Virus record (IMG/VR): IMGVR_UViG_3300042892_001069
Origin: a virus
Lineage: Duplodnaviria; Heunggongvirae; Uroviricota; Caudoviricetes
Reading direction: 5' to 3' (one strand)
Length of the DNA: 64,000 nt
Under the pieces are notes generated by a model that saw nothing but the letters and a program-made list of their open reading frames with translations, was not told the origin of the DNA and ran no database searches. The position numbers were made by a program, and so were the translations under genes. The number at the start of each line of letters is the position of its first letter. The stretch's first letter is position 1. This document shows positions 2,601-31,565 of the stretch, piece by piece.

Positions 2601-14115
<11,515 letters not shown>

Positions 14116-15000: not shown

Positions 15001-15013
15001 AATGATATTTACC

Positions 15014-15021: not shown

Positions 15022-15039
15022 GAACACAGGAGATTAACC

Positions 15040-16439: not shown

Positions 16440-16651
16440 TGCCTTATGACGCCTGCGATTATAAAAAAGTTTGTGATAATATATATTAACACAATCAGCG
16501 TTCTAATACAAGCAATTCGGTCCGCTTCCACGTCCGAACTGCCTGCTTTCTCACCTAATGCTTTAGCCCAAACGTGCCAAATTTTACGCAAATAAATCTT
16601 CATTCCATTCACGGTGACCTTCAGTAAAGGCCATGTTGCTTTGAGTTTCAC
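16433..16651 (-). CDS. Possible small membrane protein (72 aa; hydrophobic C-terminus) overlapping neighbours
   Basis: ORF track; overlaps 3' end of PTPS-like gene by 68 nt (20 nt if internal Met used); weak. Confidence 0.2.
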   Translation of the reverse strand: MKLKATWPLLKVTVNGMKIYLRKIWHVWAKALGEKAGSSDVEADRIACIRTLIVLIYIITNFFIIAGVIRHW

Positions 16652-17090
16652 GTACTTCTACACGATAGCACCATAGACGCTTTGCTTCGCCATCACCCCA
16701 CATGTCTGGAATGTAAACACCATTAACATACTTGTACAGCATTTCACTAAGACCTTCACATCCTAGTTTTGGTAAAACAACTATCTTAGCCATTTTCTTT
16801 TCTACTAACAGATTGTATGTTTCCATTTCTGGATCATCTGCGGCTACAATAAGTGTATGATCAAATTGATCTTCTAAAATCTTTTTGAGTTCTTTTAAAC
16901 CACCATAGTCAGCCGCCCAATTGCGGACATCTAGGTCGTTAGTGCCAAAGTAAAATTTCATGCTAAATGAATAGCCGTGAATTAGATTACAGTGACTATC
17001 AGCTCGCCATTGGCGATAGGCGCAAGGAAATGCGTCGTGATATTCTTTTGTGCTTGTATACTTATAAGCGACAGGTTGTAAAGTTGCCAT
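16584..17090 (-). CDS. 6-pyruvoyl-tetrahydropterin synthase / QueD-like protein with HGY in place of HGH
   Basis: Layout SHCNLIHGYSF...DLDVRNWAADYGGLKELKKILEDQFDHTLI parallels QueD C-x-x-x-HGH...DH.LN; one predicted Zn-ligand His replaced by Tyr. Confidence 0.65.
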   Translation of the reverse strand: MATLQPVAYKYTSTKEYHDAFPCAYRQWRADSHCNLIHGYSFSMKFYFGTNDLDVRNWAADYGGLKELKKILEDQFDHTLIVAADDPEMETYNLLVEKKMAKIVVLPKLGCEGLSEMLYKYVNGVYIPDMWGDGEAKRLWCYRVEVRETQSNMAFTEGHREWNEDLFA

Positions 17091-17193
17091 TGTTATATCT
17101 CCTAGTTAACAATGACACGCAGAGTTTATATTCCGGGATGAGCGTCTAAGTCCGGATATAGTAATTATACGCTTTTATAGCGTAAAGTCAATA

Positions 17194-18645
17194 TTATTGG
17201 CGAACAATTGCCCCAAACGGTAACCATGTCCCTGGCTCACCAGTAGCAACACATACCCAACCGATATAAGTAAATTCGGCAGGATTAGAGTTCCAACAAA
17301 TATCGCCTTTAGTTGCTAATCCAGTTACAGGCGCACTCGCTCCAGTTGTAAATTTTTTATCAGCAAAACTAATATTCCCTTTAACTGCTAAATCTACAGT
17401 TGGGTCAGGATTATTAATTCCAACACTTAGCGGTCCAAATACTTTAACAACTCGTCGACTATTTAATTTGTTACCGATTTCAATTTTTAAATCGTCTGCG
17501 TAGAAAGCCTGATGGCCATCGACGTTAACAGCAAACGAGTCTGTACCAGACACTGACTTTACTGCTAGTGATTTAACAGTAATTGCGTCAACGTCCACTG
17601 GCCCTAAGAATTTTGACTCACCTTTAACTACTAATGATGTTAGTGCGCCAACTGCTGTTAAGTTAGATTCTGTTACATTTGGCCCAAGTCCGTGTGCGGA
17701 TAATACAACGGAACCGTTAATATAATATTGTTTATCTTGTGCTAGTTCTAATGATTCTGTTGATAGTAGTCTATCGGGGTTGGCTTGAATTGTTAGTTGT
17801 TTTGCTGTGCCGTTACCCAACCATACTAGGCCTTTTCCATAAATGTTATCATCGCCGGTTGCTCTAAATTCTAATGACGTTGATTTTTCTAATCTAGTAT
17901 CAGAAATTATGTTTTCAGCAAACAGTGTTCCGTATACACGTAACACACCGTTTTTATAACGTTCTTCACCAATGTGAACCTCACCATCATTTTTTACAGT
18001 AATTCGAGCAGTATTATCTGTTACTAAGGCTAGGTCGTGATTGGTATAAGTTCCAACAGTGGCCAATCCTACACTTGGAGAATCGATAATGATTTCAACA
18101 TCGTTTTCAACAATGCTTAGGACACCGTGTGGGTTTTCAATGTTAATTCCAACACGATTAACTGATGAGTTAAAGAACGCAAACTCACCAATAGTAGCAT
18201 CACCGTCTACGGCTAATTTCTTTAAATTACCAACTTCTGTTAAGCTACTCTTTTTAACTTGTGTACCTAGTTGAGTTAGGCCAATAACAGTGGTGTTATC
18301 AATTTTATAAGACTTATCACGGTTAAGGTCAATGTCCCCGTTGGTCCAAACTCTGCCACCGTTTTTATAAATTAGCTGTACATTACCCAGACCCCAAGTC
18401 CAACCTAATCCCTTGCCGTTTAGTTCTTCTTCGGTGTTAACAGTCCACTGACCAACACCTTCAATTGTACCGGATTCTGTAATTAAGTTTTTAACTTTAA
18501 CGGTACCGGCTGTTATAGTACCACCTACAGCGAGGTCGCTACTAACAGTAAGTGTTCCGTCATGTGTTATCGCACCCGAAGTTGATTCTAAAACTAAGGT
18601 TTTTATAACAATTTTATCGTCTTGGATAGTAAGCAAGTTGGTCAT
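17194..18645 (-). CDS. Structural (fiber/baseplate-like) protein, 483 aa
   Basis: Beta-rich Gly/Thr/Val composition, repeated VxxxGxxT segments, Cys/Trp-containing C-terminal knob-like tail GDICWNSNPAEFTYIGWVCVATGEPGTW. Confidence 0.5.
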   Translation of the reverse strand: MTNLLTIQDDKIVIKTLVLESTSGAITHDGTLTVSSDLAVGGTITAGTVKVKNLITESGTIEGVGQWTVNTEEELNGKGLGWTWGLGNVQLIYKNGGRVWTNGDIDLNRDKSYKIDNTTVIGLTQLGTQVKKSSLTEVGNLKKLAVDGDATIGEFAFFNSSVNRVGINIENPHGVLSIVENDVEIIIDSPSVGLATVGTYTNHDLALVTDNTARITVKNDGEVHIGEERYKNGVLRVYGTLFAENIISDTRLEKSTSLEFRATGDDNIYGKGLVWLGNGTAKQLTIQANPDRLLSTESLELAQDKQYYINGSVVLSAHGLGPNVTESNLTAVGALTSLVVKGESKFLGPVDVDAITVKSLAVKSVSGTDSFAVNVDGHQAFYADDLKIEIGNKLNSRRVVKVFGPLSVGINNPDPTVDLAVKGNISFADKKFTTGASAPVTGLATKGDICWNSNPAEFTYIGWVCVATGEPGTWLPFGAIVRQ

Positions 18646-18689
18646 GGATAATACTCTCTTTCGAGTATTTATCCATGTTTTGCTAACCC

Positions 18690-19898
18690 TTATACTACTT
18701 TAAGTAGAATAATTTCTTCGTTTAAGCGACCGTTCATTTTAGTGTCTGTAGCGTTAATGTCGTCTAAGAACTTACGCAACTGTACCTTGCCTGCGGCCTT
18801 GAACTCTTTAAGTTTCTCTTCTGGCTTGCGAAGTGTTTTACACACACTGGTAGTTTCGTTAAACCCAATAATTGTAGTACCCTTCACACTGAGTGTTTGG
18901 TACTCGGCAGCAACATATTTGCCTAGTTTACGACTTTTAGAGTTATAAACCCACAATTCTGTAGCCCCTACAATGTCTGTAGGATTAATACTTACAAGTT
19001 TTAACGGCTCGTTAGTTTTCATGTATTTGAGCTTACTAACAATCTTTTCTGCCGGAACAGCTTTCTTAGCACGTGGCGCACGATTAACCTTAGCTTCTTG
19101 TGCCAACATAGTACAAGCCGCCATGATCTCTTGATAGAAAGCAATTAAATTCTTAATCTGCTTTTTACTGCGATGTGAGTATCCTTCGCGCAACTGCTCG
19201 TCAGCTTTACCGCTAGCAAGCTCTTCTAACTCGGCTAAGTCTTTAGAATAAAACTCTTTAATAATACGAGCGTGAGCGGCCTTTGCTTCTACAGCTTTGA
19301 GCAAGTTAAGCATTTTAAATGATTTTGGATCAAACGTTTCTGCGTCAGTTTGAAACGATTCAATAGCGTTTTCAATTTCTTCAGTCATACGCATAGCCGC
19401 TTCACGTACTCGTTCTTGAATACTCGGAGTATATACATCTGCTTTTGCGGCTTCTTTTTCAGCGGCAGCAACTTCTGGGTCGATATCGTTTTTACCTTCG
19501 GTAATAACTTTAACAATCTCTGCTCGCAACCAAGCGGCAGTGTCACGACCTTGATTAAAGTCGGCACGTTGCGGAGTCATACCTCGATTCAAACAACAGG
19601 CAACTGCTCCCATTGTTGTGCCAACACGTGAATCTTTAACTTTCTTGAACGCTGTAATGTCAGCTTTGGTACAGCCAACAGTTTCCATCCATTTGGCAAC
19701 GGCAGGCTTGTAACTTTTAATGTCACTTTCCAAACGATAGTAGTCCATTGAGCGTTTAAAATGACGATGGAACGTAGCGTCATCCCAAGTTTCGCAACCT
19801 TCCCAAACTGGACTATGGTCTTTAACAGCACGAGTACGATGTGCTGTAACTTGGGCCTTAGTTACACGGGTCTTTTTTGTGGGTGCTTTAGTCGCCAT
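18690..19898 (-). CDS. Hypothetical protein (402 aa), Lys/Ala/Glu-rich
   Basis: ORF track; RBS aggag; driven by consensus sigma70 promoter at 19929-19957. Confidence 0.5.
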   Translation of the reverse strand: MATKAPTKKTRVTKAQVTAHRTRAVKDHSPVWEGCETWDDATFHRHFKRSMDYYRLESDIKSYKPAVAKWMETVGCTKADITAFKKVKDSRVGTTMGAVACCLNRGMTPQRADFNQGRDTAAWLRAEIVKVITEGKNDIDPEVAAAEKEAAKADVYTPSIQERVREAAMRMTEEIENAIESFQTDAETFDPKSFKMLNLLKAVEAKAAHARIIKEFYSKDLAELEELASGKADEQLREGYSHRSKKQIKNLIAFYQEIMAACTMLAQEAKVNRAPRAKKAVPAEKIVSKLKYMKTNEPLKLVSINPTDIVGATELWVYNSKSRKLGKYVAAEYQTLSVKGTTIIGFNETTSVCKTLRKPEEKLKEFKAAGKVQLRKFLDDINATDTKMNGRLNEEIILLKVV

Positions 19899-19928
19899 TT
19901 CTACTCCTGTTTGTTTAGCAATACATGT

Positions 19929-19957
19929 ATTATACGTTCATTCTGAGGCATTGTCAA
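19929..19957 (-). promoter_or_regulatory. Consensus sigma70-type promoter TTGACA-17-TATAAT (minus strand), overlapping stop of upstream rSAM gene
   Basis: Minus-strand read: TTGACAatgcctcagaatgaacgTATAAT. Confidence 0.55.
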
Positions 19958-21107
19958 CCGAGTCTTCAAGCAATCTAGTAATATCCGGAACCATTTTGAG
20001 TATATCTAGATTACGTTCTTTGGCTAATGATAACGATCTTTCCCAAAATTCTTTGATATCACTTTTTGGAGTCTTTAACAATTCAACTATTGATCTTTTA
20101 AATGGATTACCCTTGTCTATATTCCAATTACCTTGTATAGTAGATTCCCACTCTGTTAGTTGTCTTGTTAACAATATTTTTTGATTCGGCGGAATAATTG
20201 ATAACATTTGCCATTCTCTTCCAGATACCCAGTCCCAATCTAACTCCCATTTGGGATAATTATTAGTCATAAACATAATAAATTGGTCTAATGTAAAAAT
20301 ATTATAAACGCTGATAACGCTATGTATGGTTAGTGTAACATTGTCTTTTGTGCCCCACCATTCGTTATATTGATCCATCACTTGTTGTACTTCTGTAAAT
20401 TTGCTTGGCCAACGATACCAATCATTCACAGATCCTAGACCATCTAAACTTACATCCAAATATATTGAAGCACATTGATCCATTAACGATTTTAATTCGC
20501 TATTCGGTAAACTAGTTCCGTTTGTCGATACTAATAGTTTAATCTTAGATAAATCTAATTTTTTCATAAGATGAATAAATCTATCCTGATCCATAAACGG
20601 CTCACCGCCAAATATCTTTAGTGTAGTTAACTGACTTAAATCTAAGTTGTCAACTATTGAGGTCGGGTGATCTATAAGAACTTTTATTTCTTTTCCTATC
20701 CTGCCTGCTTTATAATCTTCAGTACCCCATGTTGTTGAGTATTGTCTACTACAACTGACACACGCAAGATTACACAAGTTACTAAAAGCAATATCTAACA
20801 TTTTAATATGACGTAATTCTGTTGTGGTGGGTAATTCAGTATCTTGTAAACTATAAGTTCTTGTACTCATACCACCAGCATCTTCTTGTTTATAACATTG
20901 CTGACATGCTGTATTTTTTTTACCAGATAGCATGTCTTCCTGTAGTTCACGCCAGGGTGTTGATTTTCTAAAATCAATTGATACTGTACTGCCTTCCAAA
21001 AATTCTGTGGAAGGCCAAAATCTACAACAAGGTTCCGCCCTACCACCTGCTCTAATAGCAATGCTATCCCAGGGTAGCAAACACATTGCTCCGTTATCTG
21101 TTTGCAT
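19938..21107 (-). CDS. Radical SAM protein with N-terminal Cys-rich (SPASM-like, permuted) module (389 aa)
   Basis: CNLACVSC = CxxxCxxC; upstream Cys cluster CLLPW...GGRAEPCC...CQQC. Confidence 0.75.
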   Translation of the reverse strand: MQTDNGAMCLLPWDSIAIRAGGRAEPCCRFWPSTEFLEGSTVSIDFRKSTPWRELQEDMLSGKKNTACQQCYKQEDAGGMSTRTYSLQDTELPTTTELRHIKMLDIAFSNLCNLACVSCSRQYSTTWGTEDYKAGRIGKEIKVLIDHPTSIVDNLDLSQLTTLKIFGGEPFMDQDRFIHLMKKLDLSKIKLLVSTNGTSLPNSELKSLMDQCASIYLDVSLDGLGSVNDWYRWPSKFTEVQQVMDQYNEWWGTKDNVTLTIHSVISVYNIFTLDQFIMFMTNNYPKWELDWDWVSGREWQMLSIIPPNQKILLTRQLTEWESTIQGNWNIDKGNPFKRSIVELLKTPKSDIKEFWERSLSLAKERNLDILKMVPDITRLLEDSVDNASE

Positions 21108-23535
21108 TAATCATCCAATCCATTTCTTCTGTTGCGTAAACTTTTATTTTTTGTTCGGCATTTTGATCATGGAGACCTTGTACTGCTACACTGTTTAGAG
21201 ATGGGAACAACTGTTTAAACTCGTTATAACATTTTTCTGCTAGATCTTTATATCCAGGCTCCAACATAATCCGTACACCAATCCACATTGACGATGCCGG
21301 ACCGCCGTCTGTTCTAGCTTTTAGAACAGCATCTACTGCTCCTCTAACCGCTTTGGTAAATTTTTCTAATCCAAATTTTTCAACGTATCTTAAATGAATG
21401 CTAAATGTTATACTACTGTACTGTGCTAACTCTGCGTAATATTGTTCTGTTGCGCTACCGTTAGTTGTTGTAGAAATAGTATGACCTTTTTCTCGTAACA
21501 TTTTAACAAACGGCAAATAATCTTTATAGATCGCAGGTTCGCCTCCAGTAAAACTAAATTTGGCCTTAACATCTTCAATCCAATACTTATTTAAATTTTC
21601 ATAAGCATGAGTAAGCTCTATTAAATTTTTTTGCTGTTCATAATTGTTGTGACTGTTTTTACTACAGTACCAACAATCAAAATTACAACGTCTTCCTAGA
21701 TCCCATGAAATAAACTTATGTCTATGAAAGTCCTTAGAAAAAATTATTTCAGGTTGGATACTACTTTCTGGGACCGGGTTGAGTAATTTAACACGGGCTC
21801 TAGTTTTAAGAGTAGGAAAAAAAGTTGCTATGTGCTCAACTTTTTTTACCTTTGGAGTATTCATATCTGCAGCACAAGAACATAATGTTTTTGTACAAGT
21901 GACCCAATTGCCAGCTTTTAAATAAATTCCTTGGTCTAATCCTGTTGCTACGTGTACATTACCAACAAACCCGCCAACTCGGCAAGTGCCGCGCCACACA
22001 TTGCCATCAAAGTCTATATATATCGAATTAAGGCCGGTACTACAATGCCAACCCTTCCAATTATTTCTTGATGTAGTATGAAGTGTTTCACCATCTACAT
22101 AGGCAAAGTTCATAGACGCATCAGCTAATACTAAATTTTTATGATCAGTTTTACTATCTTGATTATCGATTTTCCATTTGCCTACTTCGTCTGTTCCAAA
22201 CAACACTCCTATTTGAAATCTATCTATAACTGTCTTTTTAAACGTGTTGTATATTTCAGTAACTTCTTCAATAGTATGATCAACAAACAAAAAATCTGTA
22301 GAAAAAATGTTGCTGTAATAAAAGAATACTTCTTCGTGTTGTGATCGAACTAGTAATTTTTTAACACTTTCAGGGTCATATAAATTACACTGAGCAAATT
22401 TTATGTCGCACTCTTTAAATCGTTGCCACAACTCTTTAAAATGTTCTTCACCGCCAAATTGTCGATGTAACAATGCTTCATTGCTTTCAAAATTGCCGTG
22501 AACAAATCTAAATTTAGATTTAAAACTATCATCTTGATTATTTAAAAACGTAACAATGTCGTGACCGTCCCAGTTTTCTACCAAATGCTGTAGCCAGTCT
22601 AAACTTAATTGATTGTAATCGTAAAAAATAAATTTACATCGTTTATTATACAGCAGTAAGTCTAAATACTTAAAACCTGCAGCTGGACCAAAGTATGACT
22701 TGATACCTTTTAAAGAAACTTCAAATCTGTAATTCTCACTATTAAACACCCATATTGGAATATCTTTAGTTAGCGACTTAATCCATTTCTTTTGATTAGG
22801 ATTAGTTAATCGTGTAAAGTCTTTATCTGTTGTTGATTTAAATAAGTTATCGCTGTCGGTTTCTGGGTACACAAACAATCGACAGTCTCTCATCTCCTGA
22901 GTAAAATTATCAATTTTAAGTCCGTGACTTAACCCAGCCTTAATAAATCCCCACCCCTGAGCAGTTCGGGTACTAGTAACTGTACCCGGTTCTCCCTTGA
23001 TCCAGTAAGGTGTATATTTGTCATGGAAGTTTTCTTCGGAACGACTATACACAGGCAACTCTTCAGTAACGGTTTCCCACTTACCAAATTCTGGTGATCC
23101 AACCTTTTTCCAAGTTGCTACATTAACAAACATCATTTGATGATGGCATTCTATCCATCCTACTCCTCTTTCTGGAAACCAGTCAAGGGTAAACGCAACT
23201 AGATAAAAATCAGGGTTATCATTATAATAAGTTGCTAGATGCTCTAGCAAGACGTTAAATCTAATAATATTCCCAATTGATTGTATTAACACTACGTCAT
23301 AATTATTTTTATCTGCGTACAACATTGCATCGTCTACGGTATCAAACGATTTTAAATCGTTAGGATAATGGGTTGTACATCTGCTAGTCTTTGTATACGT
23401 ATAGTCGTGCATCCGTTGAAACAACCCTGGATGTTTAAGTTTTACGTTAGCTTGATCGACAATAGCAAACAGTGGCCGTTTATTTCCGAAAAAATTCAAT
23501 CTCTTGTAAATTTTAGTATGCTGTGGTTTTGTCAT
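21094..23535 (-). CDS. Large fusion protein (813 aa): unknown N-terminal ~470-aa domain + SPASM-like Cys module + C-terminal radical SAM core
   Basis: CNFDCWYC (CxxxCxxC) near residue ~620; preceding HCSTGLNSIYIDFDGNVWRGTCRVGG...WVTCTKTLCSCAAD Cys/Gly module. Confidence 0.7.
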   Translation of the reverse strand: MTKPQHTKIYKRLNFFGNKRPLFAIVDQANVKLKHPGLFQRMHDYTYTKTSRCTTHYPNDLKSFDTVDDAMLYADKNNYDVVLIQSIGNIIRFNVLLEHLATYYNDNPDFYLVAFTLDWFPERGVGWIECHHQMMFVNVATWKKVGSPEFGKWETVTEELPVYSRSEENFHDKYTPYWIKGEPGTVTSTRTAQGWGFIKAGLSHGLKIDNFTQEMRDCRLFVYPETDSDNLFKSTTDKDFTRLTNPNQKKWIKSLTKDIPIWVFNSENYRFEVSLKGIKSYFGPAAGFKYLDLLLYNKRCKFIFYDYNQLSLDWLQHLVENWDGHDIVTFLNNQDDSFKSKFRFVHGNFESNEALLHRQFGGEEHFKELWQRFKECDIKFAQCNLYDPESVKKLLVRSQHEEVFFYYSNIFSTDFLFVDHTIEEVTEIYNTFKKTVIDRFQIGVLFGTDEVGKWKIDNQDSKTDHKNLVLADASMNFAYVDGETLHTTSRNNWKGWHCSTGLNSIYIDFDGNVWRGTCRVGGFVGNVHVATGLDQGIYLKAGNWVTCTKTLCSCAADMNTPKVKKVEHIATFFPTLKTRARVKLLNPVPESSIQPEIIFSKDFHRHKFISWDLGRRCNFDCWYCSKNSHNNYEQQKNLIELTHAYENLNKYWIEDVKAKFSFTGGEPAIYKDYLPFVKMLREKGHTISTTTNGSATEQYYAELAQYSSITFSIHLRYVEKFGLEKFTKAVRGAVDAVLKARTDGGPASSMWIGVRIMLEPGYKDLAEKCYNEFKQLFPSLNSVAVQGLHDQNAEQKIKVYATEEMDWMINANR

Positions 23536-24200
23536 AAGTTAAAAAACTCTTGTGTGTAATGTCCATGGACAATAATATGATATCTAACTTCATTGCTATT
23601 GTTGATAACAATGTGATCGCGCCCAACATCTAATATCATGCCAGTCCCAGCTTCAAACGGAACTATTCCTTTATCTTTGAATACAAATTGACAGCCTGTA
23701 GGATTGTTAATAGCAATGTTAAGAGGACTAAATGCTCTTTGATTTTTATTATCAGTATGTGGCATTATATATCCACCTGGCGCAAGACGCATTATTCTAA
23801 CACGATCAAATAGTTTATAAGGTAAATTGCTTAAAAATTTATGTAAGTTAGGGACTAACTCGCATACATCGGTCCAACAATAATTTGCTTCTTCTAAACT
23901 AGTAAATCCATATTTTGTATAATGTTCAGTCTTATGTTTATCAATGCCGTGTAATGTAAGACTTTGCCAGCCAAAATGGCCGTACCCAGACTTTTTATCT
24001 TGGCTTCTATGATCAAAGTATAAATGATCTACACTTTGACATTCTTTTAAAAAAAGAGCGGTATCAAAATTAAACTTTACAGGATAATACGCACACTCGA
24101 CATCCTTTTGTGATTCAACAACAGATGAATGAACTGAACTATTAAGCTCTTTGTTTGTGTTGTAAAATTCTAAAAGTTCATTTGGAAATTCAAAACTCAT
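23532..24200 (-). CDS. Aspartyl/asparaginyl beta-hydroxylase-like cupin (2OG/Fe(II) oxygenase), 222 aa
   Basis: PHTD...(~55 aa)...HIIVHG metal-binding HxD...H arrangement of AspH/LpxO family. Confidence 0.6.
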   Translation of the reverse strand: MSFEFPNELLEFYNTNKELNSSVHSSVVESQKDVECAYYPVKFNFDTALFLKECQSVDHLYFDHRSQDKKSGYGHFGWQSLTLHGIDKHKTEHYTKYGFTSLEEANYCWTDVCELVPNLHKFLSNLPYKLFDRVRIMRLAPGGYIMPHTDNKNQRAFSPLNIAINNPTGCQFVFKDKGIVPFEAGTGMILDVGRDHIVINNSNEVRYHIIVHGHYTQEFFNL

Positions 24201-25236
24201 TATCTACTATCCTAATATCTGAAATATGATTAAACTTACTCCACACATTTAGATTCCAGTCTTTAGTATCTGTAATAGCTGTAGCAAATGTATAAACTGT
24301 GCTGTCAAAAGAATAGCTGTTTAAAGCACCAACAGGGATAAACCCAAGAGCAAGGTCTTCCAGCCTCATTCGCGGATCCATAATTTCTGAAAAATTATTA
24401 TCCATCCACCATTTATATAAAGATACCCTAGCATGGTGCGGACTATCTTCTCTAAAACTCATATATGTTTCTGCGGCAAATCTTTTTTGTGGTCGGATTG
24501 CTTTTCTATGAACAGCCTCTAAGTCGTTATCGTTACACGCACTCGCCCAATGCTTGCCTAAAGTGTTGTAACCTAAGTATACCCACCCCCATTTATGTTC
24601 AGGGTCAAATAACAAATAATCCTCAGGCTTTAGTAATTCGTGTAGATAGTCTTCCGGCATAACATCTTTAGGATCTTTATTGGGCAAAAAATCCGCCAGG
24701 CATGTGCATATTGATTTTTCTCGCCTATTCCAAGTTCTAAATATTGCTTCAAAGTTATGTATTTGCTCATTCAGTCTTAGGAACGCTTCGTGGACACTTT
24801 TGTCGTGTACATCCCCGGGCCACACGGTATTGTAATCAGGACTTAATTTAGGATTATCAAAATAACCGTCAGCAATAAACTTTTCTAATCGATTGCCATA
24901 AATTTCATATTCTTCGTGTAGGTCGTTTAATACACCAGCATCGTTGCGTAATTGATCAACAGATTCAACCTCAGTTAACCGTCGGTCATAGTTATTGTTT
25001 ATAAATTCAATATTAGATTTGAACGCTACTAGTTGCTCTTCAATTTCAATATCTGATAGAATCTTTCTATAATTATATCGTAAGGTATTACCTAGCTCGT
25101 TATTTTTGTTTATTAAATTAATCCATCTATCAGCGATGTCAGTATCAAGTATTGAATATCTTAATTTTACAAATTTTCTTGATTTAGTGCCTTGACAAGT
25201 AATTTCTAAATACTTGTCTTTCTTCCATATATTCAT
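24190..25236 (-). CDS. Hypothetical protein (348 aa)
   Basis: ORF track; no recognisable motif. Confidence 0.45.
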   Translation of the reverse strand: MNIWKKDKYLEITCQGTKSRKFVKLRYSILDTDIADRWINLINKNNELGNTLRYNYRKILSDIEIEEQLVAFKSNIEFINNNYDRRLTEVESVDQLRNDAGVLNDLHEEYEIYGNRLEKFIADGYFDNPKLSPDYNTVWPGDVHDKSVHEAFLRLNEQIHNFEAIFRTWNRREKSICTCLADFLPNKDPKDVMPEDYLHELLKPEDYLLFDPEHKWGWVYLGYNTLGKHWASACNDNDLEAVHRKAIRPQKRFAAETYMSFREDSPHHARVSLYKWWMDNNFSEIMDPRMRLEDLALGFIPVGALNSYSFDSTVYTFATAITDTKDWNLNVWSKFNHISDIRIVDNEF

Positions 25237-26537
25237 AACGATGCGCCCTCAACGCTAAGTTGGACATCTTCCATTTCTGGAATTGTCTTAAATGTATCTT
25301 CGCCTCGAAGTTTATCAAGTTGCGCAGTAGTTGATAAAAATCGTTTTGCTGATTTAAGATCAAAGGGTTTTGTTAATTCGTGTAGAATATGAGTAAACTG
25401 TTTGCTTATATCAGTGTTGTACTTAGTATTATGAGTTTCTATAAACACATTTAATTTTTCAATAGTATCTTTTCTATATTGATCTGATAAAATTGAAACA
25501 TGATAATGCGGTGGATGTTCAATTAGATTAATAAAAAAATTATTATAATTTATAAGTTTAGATTTAGGATGACTTTTAATAACGCCAATTTCAGTTAGAT
25601 GCGTAATAATTTCAGGGAGTCTTGCTACATTCCATGCGCCTGTAGTAATACCAGGTCGAAGGATTATGTTGTCGTGTTTAGCTAGCTCTTTTAGATTCTC
25701 TTCTACTTTATGCCATACTGTGCCGGACCGAATTAATTCAGCACGATCACCAATTTCGTCAATGCTAGGCCATACTTCAAGTTTACCAAACTTCCACTGT
25801 TTCCAATAGTCAATGACATTTTTCTTGCCGTGTGTTAACGTCAAGCAATTAGTGTTATATGAAAGTTTTACATCAAATCTTTCATTGTCAACTAACATAT
25901 CTAAGATTTGCCAATGTTCGGGCATAATTAACGGTTCGCCGCCCGCAAAGTAAATTCTTTTTACGTTTTTGATTTGATCCTTTAAAAAATCGTAGTTTGT
26001 TTGTTCGTCAACATTTTCAATACTCCAAACTTTTTCTTGATCAGTATACCCTAATTTTTTAGCATCAGGTACCCATGCTGAACTGTAACGTGGTCCGCAA
26101 CTGCGACATTTCATGTTACATAGATTACTAAAACGGAAATCCCAATAGTTTAATTCCATTTCAGTACAAGTGCCGTCTTCTAATGTTATACTTGGAATCT
26201 TTTCCAATACTTCCGGAAAGTCTCTATTTTGATAAGTCCGACCACTTTCACCTGTAACTTTCTCTCTGTTAAAACACTTATCGCAGACTGTTGGTTCAAC
26301 GCCGTTAATCATATCTTTCCTCAGTGATTTCATATTATCACTGTTCCAGATCTCTTCAATAGTATCTTTATTGAGGTCGCCGGCAAAATAACTATGTGCC
26401 GAAGTTAAACAGCACGGCACAACTTTACCGCTTGGTTCGAACGCAAGATGCATCCACGGTACCGCACATAATGTCTTAGTTTGGACTTCTTTTACAATAG
26501 GTATAATTTTATTCATACTGTACTTATTTCCACGCAT
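25233..26537 (-). CDS. Radical SAM protein, paralog of 19938-21107 (434 aa)
   Basis: CNMKCRSC = CxxxCxxC; same N-terminal LCAVPW...GKVVPCC...CDKC module as paralog. Confidence 0.75.
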   Translation of the reverse strand: MRGNKYSMNKIIPIVKEVQTKTLCAVPWMHLAFEPSGKVVPCCLTSAHSYFAGDLNKDTIEEIWNSDNMKSLRKDMINGVEPTVCDKCFNREKVTGESGRTYQNRDFPEVLEKIPSITLEDGTCTEMELNYWDFRFSNLCNMKCRSCGPRYSSAWVPDAKKLGYTDQEKVWSIENVDEQTNYDFLKDQIKNVKRIYFAGGEPLIMPEHWQILDMLVDNERFDVKLSYNTNCLTLTHGKKNVIDYWKQWKFGKLEVWPSIDEIGDRAELIRSGTVWHKVEENLKELAKHDNIILRPGITTGAWNVARLPEIITHLTEIGVIKSHPKSKLINYNNFFINLIEHPPHYHVSILSDQYRKDTIEKLNVFIETHNTKYNTDISKQFTHILHELTKPFDLKSAKRFLSTTAQLDKLRGEDTFKTIPEMEDVQLSVEGASL

Positions 26538-26561
26538 GAGAAATTATTCTAGATGTGAATA

Positions 26562-27419
26562 CTAAGTCCAGAGGCTGTCACGAGCCTTAATAAGACGAAT
26601 CATCATAGCTTCATCTTCTGCTTCATAACCCTCTTCGATCTTTTGAAGCAACTTATGAGCCTTATCGCTGGCCTTTTTAAGCACAGGATCTTTTGGTGTG
26701 CTAAAACTCAACTTACCGCCGTTAGCTTCACGTTGTGCTTCACAGGCGGCAGTCCAACCACTTGCGTCATATGGATCAGGACGAGCACGATAGGTCACAG
26801 TCCACCACACATAAAGCTCTTTGAGTTCTTTAGCACGGAGAGCCTGTCCAGTGGGCTTGCCGTAGTCTGGATGTTCTGGGCCACACCAGTCAGTGTTAGT
26901 CAGTGTCATTGCCCAGTCAAGATGATCGATACCTGCTTGAGGGCAACGCCAAGTACGCCAACGGAACCAACCAGTAGCGTAAAAGGGAGGATCATACTTA
27001 GCACGAGCTTCCTTATCTCCCCAGGCGATGTGCGACCAAGCGGATTCAACTTCGACGAAATCAACCAACTCATTAAATAGGCATGGCAGGAACCGATTGC
27101 CAACATCACACCAGTTGCCAGGCTTAATATCACGAGCATGGGCGGTAAGAGAGTGAGTACGAGTAACCCAACGGTTATTGATGTAATACTTAACATCGTA
27201 GATCTTTCTAACAGGCCAAGTAACAAAATCCTGGATATAGCCTAAGGCCTCTTCAGCTAGCCAGTAACGAAAATTGTGCTTCATCTGAGCCGCAGTGGTC
27301 CAGTCATCCCATTCTTCACTGGTACCCGCACTCAATTTCTTAGTGCCGCGAAGCCAATCTGCGAACGGTGTGCATGACCAGTAGTTTGTGTGATGTGCCA
27401 TCTTATTTTCTATCGCCAA
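26562..27419 (-). CDS. Hypothetical Trp-rich protein (285 aa)
   Basis: ORF track; no motif recognised. Confidence 0.45.
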   Translation of the reverse strand: MAIENKMAHHTNYWSCTPFADWLRGTKKLSAGTSEEWDDWTTAAQMKHNFRYWLAEEALGYIQDFVTWPVRKIYDVKYYINNRWVTRTHSLTAHARDIKPGNWCDVGNRFLPCLFNELVDFVEVESAWSHIAWGDKEARAKYDPPFYATGWFRWRTWRCPQAGIDHLDWAMTLTNTDWCGPEHPDYGKPTGQALRAKELKELYVWWTVTYRARPDPYDASGWTAACEAQREANGGKLSFSTPKDPVLKKASDKAHKLLQKIEEGYEAEDEAMMIRLIKARDSLWT

Positions 27420-28098
27420 ATAGTTGTAACAAGTTTAAGAACAAGTTTATAAAGTCCATATACAGTGTCAGTGCTCCGCTAACTTCAGCGGCTGGGCTGG
27501 TGTCTACGCTAAGTTCTTCACGAATACGTTGTGTGTCGTATGCTGTCAATCCCAGGAATATAATAATAGCCAAGGTTGAGATCACCATCTGCATTACTGT
27601 TGAGCCAATAAAGATATTGACAATACTAGCAATGACAATAGCAATTAGTCCAACAAACAACAAACTACCAAGTCCGCTTAGATCTTTCTTGGTAAAATAA
27701 CCGTATCCACTCATAACACCAAATAGAATTGCCGCACCCATGAACGCTGACACAATACTGCCCATATTGAACACAGCAAAGATTGTAGCAAAGCTCAATC
27801 CCATCAATGCCGCGAATCCGTGTAGACATAACTGTGCTACTCCCTTACTAGGATTATTACCTAGCACATAGCCAACACCAAAGATTGCCGCCAGCGGAGC
27901 AAAGATTACAATCCATTTTAGTACACCTGTAAAAAAGAATTGTAACAATTCTGGGCTTGTGCCCACAAAATAACTTACAAACATTGATACAATAACAGCA
28001 AGACTCATGTGTCCGTAGACACGACCCATTGCCGAATTAATTTCACTAGCACTACGGTAACTTAGAGTGTCGCCGCCTGTATAATTTGTTCCAAACAT
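27403..28098 (-). CDS. Bax inhibitor-1/YccA (TMBIM) family 7-TM membrane protein
   Basis: 231 aa, 7 hydrophobic segments, family-typical C-terminus LTLYMDFINLFLNLLQLF (cf. E. coli YccA ...LYLDIINLFLSLL...). Confidence 0.7.
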   Translation of the reverse strand: MFGTNYTGGDTLSYRSASEINSAMGRVYGHMSLAVIVSMFVSYFVGTSPELLQFFFTGVLKWIVIFAPLAAIFGVGYVLGNNPSKGVAQLCLHGFAALMGLSFATIFAVFNMGSIVSAFMGAAILFGVMSGYGYFTKKDLSGLGSLLFVGLIAIVIASIVNIFIGSTVMQMVISTLAIIIFLGLTAYDTQRIREELSVDTSPAAEVSGALTLYMDFINLFLNLLQLFGDRK

Positions 28099-28099
28099 A

Positions 28100-28471
28100 T
28101 TATTCTCCTTTAATAAATTGAGCCAATTCCGGAGCCTTCCAGCCCACTGGCTTTAGTACCTTGCCATCTTCACGCTTGCGGACCCTGCCAGTATCGTGAT
28201 CAATTTTAGCAAAATTAGTTGTCATTACTTCTTTCCAAGCACCTTCGGCATCTGCTCCCATACTATGAATAGCACCAATAGTAACAACTAAAATATCGAT
28301 TAACGCATCTAGTTGTTCTACTTGATCTTCTGCCAGGGTTGCCTCTAGAAGTTCTTGGTGCTCTTCGGTAATAAGATTAGTATACAAGGCAAATTGTCCT
28401 TCATCAAACTTGCCAACACTTTGGTCGCAAGCCTTCATAAATTTTTCTTGATCTCTAAACGGGTTTGTCAT
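28100..28471 (-). CDS. MazG-like all-alpha NTP pyrophosphohydrolase (123 aa)
   Basis: Acidic helix motifs ITEEHQELLEA and EQLDALIDILVV typical of MazG/HisE-like fold. Confidence 0.45.
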   Translation of the reverse strand: MTNPFRDQEKFMKACDQSVGKFDEGQFALYTNLITEEHQELLEATLAEDQVEQLDALIDILVVTIGAIHSMGADAEGAWKEVMTTNFAKIDHDTGRVRKREDGKVLKPVGWKAPELAQFIKGE

Positions 28472-28671
28472 TATGCCATCCTATCTACATTTTGTCCCGG
28501 ACGATTCATCCGGCGATTCATTTCAACTCTTGCTTCTTCATTAGCTTTGATATTTAACTTCACACGCTGTTCTTCTAGTCTAAGTTCTTCGTGACGCTTG
28601 TCTAATTTTTTAATTTCTGTCTGTCGATAAATTTCTGCATTTTGAGCAGTTACTCTACTAACTTCGGTCAT
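28471..28671 (-). CDS. Small coiled-coil protein (66 aa)
   Basis: ORF track; Glu/Arg-rich heptads; translationally coupled (overlapping stop/start) with neighbours. Confidence 0.35.
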   Translation of the reverse strand: MTEVSRVTAQNAEIYRQTEIKKLDKRHEELRLEEQRVKLNIKANEEARVEMNRRMNRPGQNVDRMA

Positions 28672-29996
28672 ATCTTTTCTCCTACTTCAAAACCGCGGAA
28701 CCGTAGGAACCTTGGAAATCGCAAACTGTATGTTCCGTCTTGGTTTTGGGTGACGGCGTCTGCTCGCACTTCCACGATCTGACCAAGTAGGGAATCACGT
28801 GAAGCCCAGTAGCTATCACGATCACTATCACTAAAACCACTGCCAACATTGACTCGAATAGCTTTGCCATCGTCGACTCCTTGGCAGACAATCGCTCCAA
28901 GCCGTCCAACGTTTCTTCCTGTTCCTTCTTCAACATCTACTACCTCCAGTGATACTTCAATAAATGGTTTAAGTTTCAACCATGCTACACTACGTTTACA
29001 TTCGTATCCAGCTTCGGGATCCTTGATCATAATACCTTCATAACCACCAGCTACTGCCTTGGCATTAATTTCTTTGTAACGTGTTTGTCCTTCATCGGTA
29101 TCCAAATCAACTAGTTCGTTAGTTAGTGCTGTTACGTTTGGCAACTGGTCTTTGTTCTGGTCAACCCAAAAACTAACCATTGTACTACGCACCTGCTGAG
29201 TTTTATCATACGTACCTTTTTCAAAGTCTTCTAATGGTAATACATCAAATAGATTAAGAATAGCATCGTTGGCCTTAACATCGCTCTTGCGGTGTACTTG
29301 CGTCATTAAGTCTTGGAAACTACTGCTCATGATCTCGCCGTCTAACACTAAATCCATATCTTTGCTTGTAGATTTTGCTTTAACCACTGCACTAATCTGT
29401 TCTACAATGTGCGGAAAATTAACAAGTTCTTTACCATTGCGACTGAACATATCCACCCGACCATCACTACGTACAATAGTAATGACTCTAACTCCGTCGA
29501 GTTTAACTTCGATGAGTTTTTTGCCTGATACCTTCGACTCATGATTAGCACTATCATGAGCAAGCTGACAACTGAATACAGGAATAGCGTAACTAGCATA
29601 TTTCTTTTCTACTACTTTGTTAATTGTTTTTTCACTAGTACCGCAACGCAAATCCTTGATAAGGATACGTCGATACCAACCATTCCACTCTGCTTTAGTA
29701 GCAGACTTCATCATAGCTTGAATTACATCACGTGCTGTATTACCGGTAACTTGACGTGTAACAAAGCCAGTAAGAGCGAGAGTAAAACTATCCCAAGGTA
29801 GCCCAGCGCCATCTTCATCTTTTTTCTCCGGAACTTGTTTAATACCAAAAGTAATCATTGGGTCCAAAGCTAGGCGACAACCTTCAAAGAATTCGTTATT
29901 ACCAGCTTCAGCCTGCGCCAACACAATAGCTTCTTTATTCAAACGACTAGGATGATCTTCGAGTGAAGAAATGACGGTGTAGCAAGGATCGCTCAT
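28668..29996 (-). CDS. ATP-dependent DNA ligase (442 aa)
   Basis: Nucleotidyltransferase motifs I VKLDGVR (KxDG), III LVLDGEI, IV EGIMIK, V WLKLKP. Confidence 0.75.
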   Translation of the reverse strand: MSDPCYTVISSLEDHPSRLNKEAIVLAQAEAGNNEFFEGCRLALDPMITFGIKQVPEKKDEDGAGLPWDSFTLALTGFVTRQVTGNTARDVIQAMMKSATKAEWNGWYRRILIKDLRCGTSEKTINKVVEKKYASYAIPVFSCQLAHDSANHESKVSGKKLIEVKLDGVRVITIVRSDGRVDMFSRNGKELVNFPHIVEQISAVVKAKSTSKDMDLVLDGEIMSSSFQDLMTQVHRKSDVKANDAILNLFDVLPLEDFEKGTYDKTQQVRSTMVSFWVDQNKDQLPNVTALTNELVDLDTDEGQTRYKEINAKAVAGGYEGIMIKDPEAGYECKRSVAWLKLKPFIEVSLEVVDVEEGTGRNVGRLGAIVCQGVDDGKAIRVNVGSGFSDSDRDSYWASRDSLLGQIVEVRADAVTQNQDGTYSLRFPRFLRFRGFEVGEKI

Positions 29997-30047
29997 TATA
30001 TTAGACCTTTAGTTAACTGTTTAAGTAACTATTATACTGTCTAATTA

Positions 30048-30776
30048 TCAATAAGTCAAGTGATTTGTTGTCTTAAATGGCTTGCCGTAGTAAGCATTTT
30101 CTAGCTGAGTCATTATTTTACGCTTCATTTGGACTACTTTTGGATGGGTATGATCATACTCAAAAGACTTCATAAAACGTCCCCAACCGTTTGGGCGGAC
30201 TCTTTTTGGTACAGGACTATCCAAATATTCTCTGATAGCCTTTGGATCAAAATCAAACTTGTCAATCATATCCTGGGCAATATTAAATGAGTGTGCGCCC
30301 ATTTCGTCTCGGTGACCGTAGTATTCTTGCCAAGCACGATCTTTAGCATAGTAGGCAGTACTTTCGTATCCAGGAATATCTTTGAAATTTCTAGCCCGAT
30401 ATTGACGAGTATGGATTATTTCATGAAGTACTGTATCAGCAAATAAATGACACATACGTTCCCAACGATACAAACTAGTTTTCATGCTGTCAGCAGTAGT
30501 TGGAAATGCTAGTTCAACTTCGATAAATCGTTTCTTGCCTTGCTTATCATCGTCACTATAATATGCCCCACCGATCCAAACTTCGCCAGGTTTGACGGGC
30601 TTGTGTCTGTGACTTCGAACTTTGATTGGAAGGTGTGATTTAACATGCTTACTTATAATGCTGGTAATTTCACCTATAGGTAAGCGTCTATCTACAATCT
30701 CAGATTTGAGTTCGTAAATCATCGAGTACAATATATTTCGATCCAACGCGGACCAATTAAAGGCTTGACGGGCCAT
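30048..30776 (-). CDS. Putative HExxH zinc metallopeptidase-like protein (242 aa); paralog of 39097-39765
   Basis: LHEIIHTRQ (HExxHxRQ) followed by YGHRDEMGAHSFNIA; same two motifs in paralog. Confidence 0.45.
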   Translation of the reverse strand: MARQAFNWSALDRNILYSMIYELKSEIVDRRLPIGEITSIISKHVKSHLPIKVRSHRHKPVKPGEVWIGGAYYSDDDKQGKKRFIEVELAFPTTADSMKTSLYRWERMCHLFADTVLHEIIHTRQYRARNFKDIPGYESTAYYAKDRAWQEYYGHRDEMGAHSFNIAQDMIDKFDFDPKAIREYLDSPVPKRVRPNGWGRFMKSFEYDHTHPKVVQMKRKIMTQLENAYYGKPFKTTNHLTY

Positions 30777-30795
30777 AGCACACTCCTAGTAAGTA

Positions 30796-30803
30796 TATTT
30801 ATA
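30796..30803 (-). promoter_or_regulatory. T4-type late promoter TATAAATA (minus strand), 19 nt upstream of ATG at 30776, RBS aggag
   Basis: Plus strand tatttata = minus TATAAATA; embedded in AT-rich palindrome flanked by cctagta/tactagg inverted repeat. Confidence 0.4.
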
Positions 30804-30834
30804 TTATACTAGGGTGTACCATTATGTACGCACT

Positions 30835-31425: not shown

Positions 31426-31564
31426 CTTTTTCCTTTTCTTTATTTTCAGTTTCTTCTAATTTTGGGAAGCACATCTTTTCACCATCCCAACGCTGACCGC
31501 ACCAACACTCGCCATCAAGATTAATGATACAAGAACCGTTGCCGCAACAGCGTTGATCTTCCAT
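31418..31564 (-). CDS. 48-aa Cys-rich micro-protein ([48 protein letters not shown]), translationally coupled into clpP start
   Basis: Own translation; fills exact gap between stop of 31566-32366 and clpP; 6 Cys; stop overlaps clpP ATG region; below 60-aa cutoff of ORF track. Confidence 0.45.
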
Positions 31565-31565
31565 T

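What the first reader, a model, noticed from the sequence alone, without database searches (positions are those of the whole stretch)
19938..27419. Cluster of three radical-SAM proteins with a permuted architecture: Cys-rich SPASM-like module upstream of the CxxxCxxC core
SPASM/twitch auxiliary-cluster domains are normally C-terminal to the radical-SAM core. In all three proteins here the Cys/Gly-rich module comes before the core. The modules are C...PW...G...PCC...CxxC in the two ~400-aa paralogs, and HC-x14-G-x4-C...C-x4-C-x-C in the 813-aa protein. The 813-aa protein also carries an unrecognised ~470-aa N-terminal domain. An AspH-like cupin and two unknown proteins sit with them. This looks like a macromolecule- or peptide-modifying cassette with an undescribed domain order.
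Basis: partly seen in the sequence, partly recalled or inferred. Interest (0 to 1): 0.7.

Follow-up and report, generated by a model that had tools for sequence, protein, structure and literature searches.

The report
Phage radical-SAM sugar cassette, twitch-first enzymes
An uncultured marine T4-like phage carries a five-gene cassette whose three radical-SAM enzymes all have their extra iron-sulfur (twitch) domain before the catalytic core; two belong to a large, already curated family, the third is a new four-domain fusion that is a demonstrable circular permutant, and the cassette most likely tailors sugars rather than peptides.

Summary
All three radical-SAM (rSAM) proteins carry five conserved Cys upstream of CxxxCxxC.

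- **A (389 aa) and E (434 aa)** are full-length members of the curated NCBIfam family NF033640, 'N_Twi_rSAM'. The family has at least 1151 50%-identity clusters. This domain order is therefore not undescribed, although I found no paper on it.
- **B (813 aa)** is not a member. It is a fusion of a GT-A glycosyltransferase-like domain, a class-I methyltransferase-like domain, a SkfB-like twitch module (C-x19-C-x28-C-x4-C-x-C) and an rSAM core.
- **B's rSAM half is a true circular permutant.** Core-first homologues in sister cassettes align to it as two swapped segments. They align end to end once B is re-permuted in silico.

The unit is the five-gene cassette E-D-C-B-A. It has low GC and overlapping genes, and it sits in the variable region next to the tail-fibre and baseplate genes. 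F is a conserved flanking gene. Gene A is a clean indel.

The same gene set recurs in other uncultured marine phages and, distantly, in Bdellovibrionota genomes. There the hydroxylase and the GT-A/methyltransferase protein are fused. Relatives sit beside UDP-glucose dehydrogenase, sugar epimerases, carbamoyltransferase and glycosyltransferases.

Best reading: a sugar or glycoconjugate tailoring pathway, not a peptide (RiPP) cassette. The function is inferred, not shown.

The parts
25233..26537 (-). Gene E, 434 aa: N-terminal-twitch radical SAM enzyme, first gene of the cassette
   Evidence: NF033640 N_Twi_rSAM at 361.9 bits (cutoff 170), aa 21-424. Pfam SPASM, Radical_SAM and Fer4_12 hits. GGEP motif seen in the sequence.
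26274..26468 (-). E twitch module (aa 24-88; C24, C42, C43, C85, C88)
   Evidence: Pfam SPASM 6.3e-13, aa 24-88. It aligns to the C-terminal SPASM regions of ScmE, StsB and AlbA. Cys positions.
26097..26120 (-). E radical-SAM cluster motif C140-x3-C144-x2-C147
24190..25236 (-). Gene D, 348 aa: conserved cassette protein with a cyclophilin-like beta-barrel and a helical bundle; function unknown
23532..24200 (-). Gene C, 222 aa: AspH/LpxO-family Fe(II)/2OG cupin hydroxylase
   Evidence: PF05118 at 8.7e-11, 42.3 bits (cutoff 22.6). H148-x-D150 motif present, with downstream His residues. 65-72% identical in L001/L004 and 38-40% in Bdellovibrionota loci.
21094..23535 (-). Gene B, 813 aa: four-domain fusion of GT-A-like, MTase-like, twitch and rSAM core
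22771..23478 (-). B aa ~20-255: GT-A glycosyltransferase-like domain
22156..22713 (-). B aa ~275-460: class-I SAM methyltransferase-like Rossmann domain
21850..22068 (-). B aa 490-562: SkfB-like twitch module (C498, C518, C547, C552, C554)
   Evidence: The five Cys are invariant in 26 homologues. The best PDB hit of the profile is the SkfB twitch domain, 6efn 328-395, E 0.033, with the same C-x4-C-x-C. 2 of 26 members hit Pfam SPASM, best 1e-4.
21097..21723 (-). B aa 605-813: radical SAM core (C617-x3-C621-x2-C624 at 21664-21687; TGGEP motif)
   Evidence: PF04055 at 1.8e-14, aa 614-740.
19938..21107 (-). Gene A, 389 aa: second N-terminal-twitch radical SAM enzyme (twitch aa 9-75 = 20883-21083; core motif 20751-20774). 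A variable add-on.
   Evidence: NF033640 at 210.4 bits (cutoff 170), aa 7-378. Absent from the 83%-identical relatives L013/L014, where window 19985-21087 is a clean indel.
26562..27419 (-). Gene F, 285 aa: conserved flanking gene, probably NOT part of the cassette
   Evidence: No family hit. GC 45-48% against ~34% for A-E. Absent from the L001/L004 cassettes. Present as the left flank of a different cassette in L017, 49% identity.

Best explanation
**What it is.** A translationally coupled five-gene cassette (E-D-C-B-A, minus strand, 19938-26537), probably horizontally acquired. It sits in the variable region next to the tail-fibre and baseplate genes of an uncultured marine T4-like myophage. 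It most likely builds or tailors a sugar or glycoconjugate.

**Shown here**
- All three rSAM enzymes encode their auxiliary-cluster (twitch) domain before the CxxxCxxC core.
- A and E are members of the curated N_Twi_rSAM family.
- B fuses a GT-A-like and a methyltransferase-like domain to a twitch-first rSAM.
- That rSAM is a circular permutant of core-first homologues found in sister cassettes.

**Inferred mechanism**
- Each rSAM binds a SAM-cleaving [4Fe-4S] cluster on CxxxCxxC and one auxiliary cluster on 4 of the 5 N-terminal Cys.
- A 45-55 residue linker lets the N-terminal module pack where a C-terminal twitch domain normally sits.
- The 5'-deoxyadenosyl radical abstracts H from a sugar carbon. 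This would give epimerisation, oxidation or dehydration, as in the twitch enzymes BtrN, NeoN and BlsE (my own knowledge).
- The GT-A domain transfers the sugar and the methyltransferase-like domain methylates it.
- The AspH-like cupin hydroxylates either the acceptor or the product.
- D is a cyclophilin-like accessory protein or enzyme.

The final acceptor is not determined. It could be a host surface polysaccharide or a virion protein.
For: **Architecture**
- Family and motif evidence.
- Permutation: the native B rSAM half gives two swapped HSPs with core-first homologues (for example P0291 at 1e-20 and 4e-13). After in-silico re-permutation it gives a single end-to-end HSP (311 aa, 8e-34; L001 314-aa protein, 4e-26).
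- Both orders occur among the hits.

**Cassette unity**
- 4-14 nt gene overlaps.
- GC ~34% against 40-48% in the flanks.
- The same gene set occurs in L001/L004 and in four Bdellovibrionota MAGs.
- There are AspH::GT-A/MT fusions in L008 and L009.

**Sugar link**
- B's N-terminal region has a GT-A fold plus a methyltransferase fold.
- The syntenic phage L017 has, at the same site, a double N_Twi rSAM, a standalone B-type rSAM, UDP-glucose/GDP-mannose dehydrogenase and an NAD epimerase/dehydratase.
- L004 carries a carbamoyltransferase. L006 carries GT2 and YdjC.
- The protein PGAP names 'twitch domain-containing radical SAM protein' on a Methylomagnum plasmid lies among GT4s, polyprenyl synthetase, AsnB and an ABC transporter. 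The Azospirillum homologue lies among epimerase/dehydratases, FkbM methyltransferases and a carbamoyltransferase.
- Pelagimyophage host-recognition clusters are reported to hold glycosyltransferases and variable radical-SAM cassettes (PMC7029224).
Against: - No substrate, product or activity is known for any member. Nothing was found in the literature.
- The GT-A and methyltransferase assignments rest on fold similarity at moderate Z (10-12) with no sequence-family hit. A canonical DxD motif was not identified.
- The match of B's module to SkfB and SPASM is weak (E 0.033; 2 of 26 members).
- The two module types are not significantly similar to each other (hhalign E 0.21).
- In L009 the hydroxylase-GT/MT fusion and D occur with no rSAM within the 20.6-kb locus examined. 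The rSAMs may therefore be accessory.
- A subtilase sits beside the L008 cluster. That would also fit a peptide substrate.
Confidence: 0.6

Rival explanations
1. Protein-directed hydroxylation and glycosylation. The AspH-like cupin creates a hydroxyl on a side chain of a virion protein (tail fibre or baseplate) or a host protein. The GT-A domain O-glycosylates it and the methyltransferase methylates the sugar. The rSAMs tailor the attached glycan or the protein. This overlaps the main explanation but fixes the acceptor as a protein.
For: - The hydroxylase and the GT-A/MT protein are adjacent everywhere and are fused in L008 and L009.
- The cassette lies beside a 483-aa fibre-like gene and a 3740-aa baseplate/fibre-like gene.
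- From my own knowledge: hydroxylase-GT coupling is known in LH3/PLOD and Mimivirus L230.
Against: - PF05118 also contains lipid hydroxylases such as LpxO (my own knowledge).
- In L009 the fused gene sits among housekeeping genes, not next to an obvious substrate.
- No acceptor motif or repeat protein was identified.
Confidence: 0.2
2. RiPP/peptide maturation cassette. The twitch rSAMs cross-link or epimerise a ribosomal peptide, and the AspH-like enzyme beta-hydroxylates Asp/Asn in it.
For: - Weak secondary NCBIfam hits to sactipeptide, ranthipeptide and cyclophane maturases.
- B's module is most like the twitch domain of the sactisynthase SkfB.
- A subtilase sits next to the L008 cluster.
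- From my own knowledge: AspH-type hydroxylases act in some lanthipeptide pathways.
Against: - The genes overlap, leaving only 24- and 39-nt gaps, so there is no room for a precursor gene.
- No RRE/PqqD hit, no leader peptidase and no exporter in the phage cassettes.
- All maturase hits fall far below their cutoffs (<=46 bits against 265-850).
- The contexts are rich in sugar enzymes.
Confidence: 0.12
3. Nucleotide or DNA hypermodification pathway of the phage: base glycosylation or methylation with radical chemistry.
For: - Phage context.
- A PTPS/QueD-like gene lies 3 kb away. A weak QueC hit lies near the L015 copy.
- GT and MT domains occur in known phage DNA-modification systems (my own knowledge).
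Against: - The same gene set occurs in Bdellovibrionota chromosomes beside GT2 and YdjC (L006) or among housekeeping genes (L009).
- No DpdA/TGT, hydroxymethylase or kinase was seen among the cassette genes or the immediate neighbours that were scanned.
- Cellular family members sit in polysaccharide loci.
Confidence: 0.05
4. The N-terminal Cys modules are structural Zn-binding ribbons with no Fe-S cluster, so the 'permutation' is only apparent.
For: - No cluster binding was tested.
- The SPASM signal for B's module is weak.
Against: - E's module hits SPASM at 6e-13.
- B's module is homologous (E 1e-10 to 1e-13) to the C-terminal module of core-first relatives, and re-permutation gives end-to-end alignments.
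- The Cys spacing matches the SkfB twitch.
Confidence: 0.03

Closest known systems
NCBIfam NF033640 'N_Twi_rSAM' (twitch domain-containing radical SAM protein)
   Same: A and E match over their full length, above the curated cutoff. Both have the N-terminal C..PW..G..PCC..CxxC module followed by CxxxCxxC. The family is large and often occurs as multiple paralogues or tandem fusions.
   Different: B is not a member (36 bits against a cutoff of 170). No biochemical function is attached to the family in anything I could find.
SkfB (PDB 6efn), twitch-domain sactisynthase
   Same: It is the best PDB match of B's module profile, with the same C-x4-C-x-C and the hairpin C...G...C.
   Different: In SkfB the twitch domain is C-terminal and an N-terminal peptide-binding region is present. 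The similarity is weak (E 0.033). B's partners are GT-A/MT domains, not a precursor peptide.
Core-first ~300-370 aa rSAMs of sister cassettes (L001 3466-4410 and 4415-5356, L004 6395-7339, P0291, P0292, P0294)
   Same: Homologous core and homologous Cys module. They align end to end with in-silico re-permuted B (E down to 8e-34). L001 and L004 share the same cassette partners.
   Different: The domain order is the canonical core-then-twitch, and they are stand-alone genes. L004's copy hits the STM4011 rSAM family only weakly (5.8e-4).
Carbohydrate-acting twitch rSAM enzymes (BtrN, NeoN, BlsE); from my own knowledge, not tested
   Same: One auxiliary cluster on a half-SPASM domain. The Cys spacing in A and E (C-x17-C...C-x2-C) resembles BtrN's as I recall it. 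The genomic context is sugar-related.
   Different: Their twitch domain is C-terminal. There is no significant sequence match (BlsE model 13.6 bits).
Radical-SAM gene cassettes in the host recognition cluster of pelagimyophages (PMC7029224)
   Same: Variable rSAM cassettes lie next to the giant baseplate protein and the tail fibres of marine T4-like phages. Presence and absence differ between close relatives, as for gene A here.
   Different: That paper does not describe the domain architecture, the permutation or the partner genes. Whether this window is a pelagimyophage was not established (GC ~40%; the giant ORF matches cyanomyophage gp7/fibre domains).

Membership tests
NF033640 N_Twi_rSAM | Whole-protein HMM score at or above the curated cutoff (170 bits), aligned end to end | tested here: met
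   A: 210.4 bits, aa 7-378 on profile 3-396. E: 361.9 bits, aa 21-424 on profile 2-396. B fails at 36.4 bits, core only, so B is not filed here.
NF033640 N_Twi_rSAM | Twitch/half-SPASM module N-terminal to CxxxCxxC | tested here: met
   E aa 24-88 hits Pfam SPASM at 6.3e-13. A has the same Cys pattern (C9, C27/28, C68, C71) and is aligned from profile position 3.
Radical SAM superfamily (PF04055) | CxxxCxxC cluster motif plus a GGE SAM-binding motif; Pfam score at or above the gathering threshold (29.5) | tested here: met
   B scores 54.7 bits and E 31.9 bits. A scores 27.1, just under the threshold, but reaches 28.4 on Fer4_12 (cutoff 22). All three have the motif and GGEP (sequence).
Canonical SPASM/twitch rSAM architecture | Auxiliary-cluster domain C-terminal to the core | tested here: not met
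   The module precedes the core in A, B and E. In B's own family, core-first homologues also exist.
SPASM/twitch domain (B's module) | Sequence match to SPASM/twitch models or to solved twitch domains | tested here: inconclusive
   2 of 26 module sequences hit PF13186 (best 1e-4). The profile's top PDB hit is the SkfB twitch at E 0.033. hhalign against the A/E module gives E 0.21.
SPASM/twitch domain | Binds an auxiliary Fe-S cluster packed against the barrel opening | not testable with these tools
Cluster content needs biochemistry.
rSAM RiPP maturases | RRE/PqqD-like domain, an adjacent precursor peptide gene, and an equivalog HMM above its cutoff | tested here: not met
   No RRE hit. The best maturase model scores 45.6 bits against 650. 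There is no intergenic room for a precursor.
Asp/Asn beta-hydroxylase family PF05118 (gene C) | Pfam score at or above 22.6; metal-binding His motif | tested here: met
   42.3 bits, aa 66-211. H148-T-D150 and downstream His residues are present. Substrate class was not tested.
GT-A glycosyltransferases (B aa ~20-255) | GT-A Rossmann-like fold | tested here: met
GT-A glycosyltransferases (B aa ~20-255) | Membership of a sequence-defined GT family; DxD metal motif | tested here: inconclusive
   No Pfam or NCBIfam GT hit. Conserved D27, D68, D80 and D118 exist, but no clear DxD was assigned.
Class I SAM methyltransferases (B aa ~275-460) | Rossmann methyltransferase fold with a Gly-rich motif I and an acidic residue after beta-2 | tested here: inconclusive
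Viperin / pVip | Equivalog score at or above 180 bits over the full length | tested here: not met
   31-50 bits, N-terminal part of the core only.

The most novel reading that the evidence does not exclude
The twitch-first rSAM enzymes (NF033640 and the B-type family) are an uncharacterised class of radical enzymes acting on glycans. Together with a hydroxylase::GT-A::methyltransferase module and a cyclophilin-like partner, they form a previously undescribed pathway shared by marine phages and predatory Bdellovibrionota. In phages this pathway would decorate tail-fibre or baseplate proteins, or remodel the host surface glycan, and so directly affect host recognition. B would be a single polypeptide that channels a sugar from transfer through methylation to radical tailoring.
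Probability: 0.2. Interest if true: 0.75.

Novelty: new variant of a known kind. Interest (0 to 1): 0.45.

Why it matters
- **A natural test of domain order.** Auxiliary-cluster domains are taught as C-terminal extensions of the rSAM barrel. This cassette holds one family with both domain orders among detectable homologues. That gives a natural experiment on whether the order matters for cluster placement and electron transfer.
- **An uncharacterised family gets a hypothesis.** A/E-type enzymes form a family of more than a thousand 50%-identity clusters with no known reaction. The sugar-gene contexts found here give a concrete, testable substrate hypothesis.
- **Relevance to marine phage biology.** The cassette sits in the hypervariable host-recognition region and varies by clean gene indels between close relatives. 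That is where determinants of host range or superinfection exclusion would be expected.

Tried and rejected
- **DNA search in isolated phages.** Megablast of the region against INPHARED phages gave no match.
- **Protein searches in isolated phages.** tblastn of B, of B's N-terminal region and of D gave no match even at E 0.1. E gave only four distant hits. Its neighbour in Vibrio phage K566 is not D-like by HMM.
- **Literature.** Searches for 'N-terminal twitch', 'N-terminal SPASM', 'NF033640' and twitch plus circular permutation found nothing. The phrase 'twitch domain-containing radical SAM' only appears in generic titles.
- **Module-to-module comparison.** hhalign of B's module against the A/E module was not significant (E 0.21), although the hairpin aligns in register.
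- **Re-permuting against NCBIfam.** For A and E I therefore could not show a core-first sister family.
- **Other database checks.** PADLOC gave only generic pVip core hits. PDB sequence searches with B, E and C gave nothing useful. The afdb50 fold library was unavailable.
- **Source names.** Cluster look-up gave no organism names or accessions.
- **F as a cassette member.** Considered and rejected on composition and on its conservation pattern.
Full report
**1. What is there**

Region 19938-27419 holds six minus-strand ORFs:
- F, 26562-27419, 285 aa, TTG start.
- E, 25233-26537, 434 aa.
- D, 24190-25236, 348 aa.
- C, 23532-24200, 222 aa.
- B, 21094-23535, 813 aa.
- A, 19938-21107, 389 aa.

E, D, C, B and A overlap each other by 4-14 nt, so they are probably translationally coupled. 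Genes A-E average about 34% GC, while the flanks, F included, are at 40-48%.

**2.

Each of the three rSAM proteins has five Cys upstream of its CxxxCxxC:
- A: C9, C27, C28, C68, C71, then C112/116/119.
- E: C24, C42, C43, C85, C88, then C140/144/147.
- B: C498, C518, C547, C552, C554, then C617/621/624.

All three also carry a GGEP motif. The only correction concerns the spacing in B. It is C-x12-G-x6-C (C-x19-C) followed by C-x28-C-x4-C-x-C.

**3. A and E belong to a curated family**

- E aa 24-88 hits Pfam SPASM at 6e-13.
- In NCBIfam, the same stretch aligns to the C-terminal SPASM regions of ScmE (profile positions 249-325 of 358), StsB and AlbA.
- Both proteins match NF033640, 'N_Twi_rSAM, twitch domain-containing radical SAM protein', end to end. 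Scores are 210 and 362 bits against a cutoff of 170.
- An exhaustive phmmer search with E finds 1151 50%-identity cluster representatives at E<=1e-30 and 5855 at E<=1e-10.
- Those alignments start at about query residue 20, so the N-terminal module is conserved. The hits include tandem double and triple fusions of 790-1106 aa.

The twitch-first order is therefore real, but it is already catalogued and common. I found no paper that discusses it.

**4. B is something else**

B fails NF033640 (36 bits). Its first ~455 residues are a stand-alone protein of about 455 or 589 aa in roughly 80 environmental clusters. The fusion to an rSAM occurs in only about eight clusters.

- A class-I methyltransferase-like domain: INMT 9.9, PPM1 9.5, CheR 9.5.

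The rSAM half (aa 471-813) has about 55 stand-alone ~350-aa homologues at 41-50% identity, all with the same module-first order.

The five Cys of its module are invariant across 26 diverse homologues. The module profile's best PDB hit is the SkfB twitch domain, with the same C-x4-C-x-C, at a weak E of 0.033. Two members hit Pfam SPASM on their own.

**5. Circular permutation**

Sister cassettes contain ~314-aa rSAMs in which the homologous module is C-terminal. With native B these give two HSPs in swapped order. The same holds for P0291, P0292 and P0294.

When B's rSAM half is re-permuted in silico (core then module), it aligns in one HSP over 311-365 aa. E-values are 8e-34 for P0291 and 4e-26 for the L001 protein. 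Two independent module-first homologues behave the same way.

This is direct evidence that both domain orders exist within one homologous family.

A plausible route is tandem duplication followed by fusion and truncation. L001 has two adjacent 314/313-aa copies, and NF033640 has tandem fusions. This route is inferred, not shown.

For A and E, no core-first sister family could be found.

**6. The unit and its relatives**

Metagenomic loci L001-L003 and L004/L005 (L004 from a 299-kb contig; copies of the L001-type cassette occur on contigs up to 338 kb) carry these genes in one block:
- An E-like gene (69% identity in L001).
- A D-like gene (47-51%).
- Core-first B-type rSAMs.
- A further N_Twi rSAM (in L001 inside the block; in L004 a few kb downstream).
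- A C-like gene (65-72%).
- A stand-alone homologue of B's N-terminal region (44-49%).

Four Bdellovibrionota MAGs hold the same set at 23-40% identity. In L008 and L009 the hydroxylase and the GT-A/MT protein are fused. L007 has seven N_Twi ORFs, one of them a double fusion, in about 20 kb.

F is not part of the unit. It has a different GC content and is absent from L001/L004. It is present as the left flank of a different cassette in L017.

Gene A is optional. The 83%-identical relatives L013 and L014 lack exactly window 19985-21087.

**7. Genomic setting**

The window is an uncultured marine T4-like myophage. Supporting observations:
- The 3740-aa ORF (2600-13822) shares domains with cyanomyophage gp7 and tail-fibre proteins.
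- The neighbouring genes include Fe/Mn SOD, UvdE, PTPS, BI-1, a MazG-like protein, DNA ligase and an SPFH-domain protein.
- PMC7029224 describes the hypervariable 'host recognition cluster' of pelagimyophages. It holds tail fibres, glycosyltransferases and radical-SAM cassettes that come and go between close relatives. That matches what is seen here.

**8. Function (inferred)**

Several lines of evidence converge on sugars:
- B's N-terminal region has GT-A and methyltransferase folds.
- In the syntenic phage L017 the same insertion site holds a double N_Twi rSAM, a stand-alone B-type rSAM, another N_Twi-like rSAM, UDP-glucose/GDP-mannose dehydrogenase and an NAD epimerase/dehydratase.
- L004 adds a NodU/CmcH-type carbamoyltransferase. 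L006 adds GT2 and YdjC.
- The Methylomagnum family member, which PGAP names as such, and its Azospirillum homologue, both on plasmids, sit in polysaccharide-type loci.

Evidence against a RiPP role:
- There is no precursor ORF, RRE, peptidase or exporter.
- All maturase models score far below their cutoffs.

Evidence against DNA modification: the same gene set occurs in Bdellovibrionota chromosomes beside GT2 and YdjC (L006) or among housekeeping genes (L009).

I therefore favour a sugar or glycoconjugate tailoring pathway, at about 0.6 when the protein-acceptor variant is counted separately at 0.2. The chemistry of each rSAM, the role of D and the final acceptor are unknown.

**9. Verdict**

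The sequence observation is correct. The claim that the order is undescribed is wrong for two of the three proteins.

The genuinely new points are:
- The four-domain B fusion.
- The unmodelled B-type twitch-first family, with demonstrable circular permutation.
- The conserved phage/Bdellovibrionota cassette with its sugar context.

Interest is moderate (0.45). The finding is a new variant of a known kind.

Noticed in passing
window 46178-47623 (+) and 49075-50517 (-): Two further ~480-aa radical SAM proteins (Pfam Radical_SAM at aa 184-353 and 195-362). They lie in a second cluster with several no-hit ORFs and a TctC-like binding protein (51114-52097). The window therefore encodes at least five rSAM enzymes.
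   Followed up: no
window 19957-19929 (- strand): A perfect sigma-70 consensus (TTGACA-17-TATAAT, 12/12) overlaps the last codons of gene A, just upstream of the 402-aa gene. It lies in the stretch that is also present in the A-less relatives. 11/12 sites occur at 30059-30031 and 17191-17164. The total count of promoter-like sites is not above the shuffled expectation.
   Followed up: partly
window 2600-13822 (-); L001 15968-17257: A giant 3740-aa ORF shares domains with cyanomyophage gp7 baseplate and tail-fibre proteins. Its last ~140 aa are 38% identical to the C-terminus of a 429-aa ORF lying 6.6 kb from the B_N-homologue end of the L001 cassette.
   Followed up: partly
window 56.3-62 kb; L015 1-7648: A block of oxygenase-like genes is 56-81% identical to a block that in L015 lies directly next to E-like and B-type rSAM genes. 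By homology to the L015 genes it includes an FA-desaturase-like gene (56904-57728), a weak AspH-like gene (59198-59803) and a TauD-like gene (59800-60675). A further gene at 61183-61941 has a short AspH-like match. The two gene sets may be functionally linked.
   Followed up: no
window 54093-54527 (-): This 144-aa ORF looks like an internal tandem duplication. Both halves match the ~81-87-aa DUF2061 protein that follows the B_N homologue in L004 (35-37% identity).
   Followed up: no
window 14440-17090, 27403-32366, 62372-63850: Auxiliary-type genes around the cassette: Fe/Mn superoxide dismutase, UvdE UV endonuclease, a PTPS/QueD-like protein, a BAX-inhibitor-1 family membrane protein, a MazG-like PRA-PH protein, ATP-dependent DNA ligase, an SPFH/Band-7 protein and a DUF2828/DUF7788 protein. 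A ClpP-like protein (30835-31425) is 76% identical to an L017 gene carrying Pfam CLP_protease.
   Followed up: partly
L007 (Bdellovibrionales MAG) 3161-20481: Seven N_Twi_rSAM-type ORFs lie in ~20 kb, including an 872-aa head-to-tail double fusion (11728-14346). A B-type rSAM is split into a core ORF (14343-15047) and a separate 84-aa twitch-module ORF (15134-15388). This may be a frameshift or a genuinely split gene.
   Followed up: no
L004 5517-6398: A 293-aa protein has a C-terminal B-type twitch module (HMM 5e-23) but no detectable radical SAM core and no NCBIfam hit. It may be a core-less or degenerate relative.
   Followed up: no
window 26562-27419 (gene F): A Trp-rich 285-aa protein with a TTG start and 45-48% GC has no family hit. 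It is conserved (49%) as the left flank of different cassettes in related phages. The interval between F and the 402-aa gene behaves as an insertion hot-spot.
   Followed up: partly
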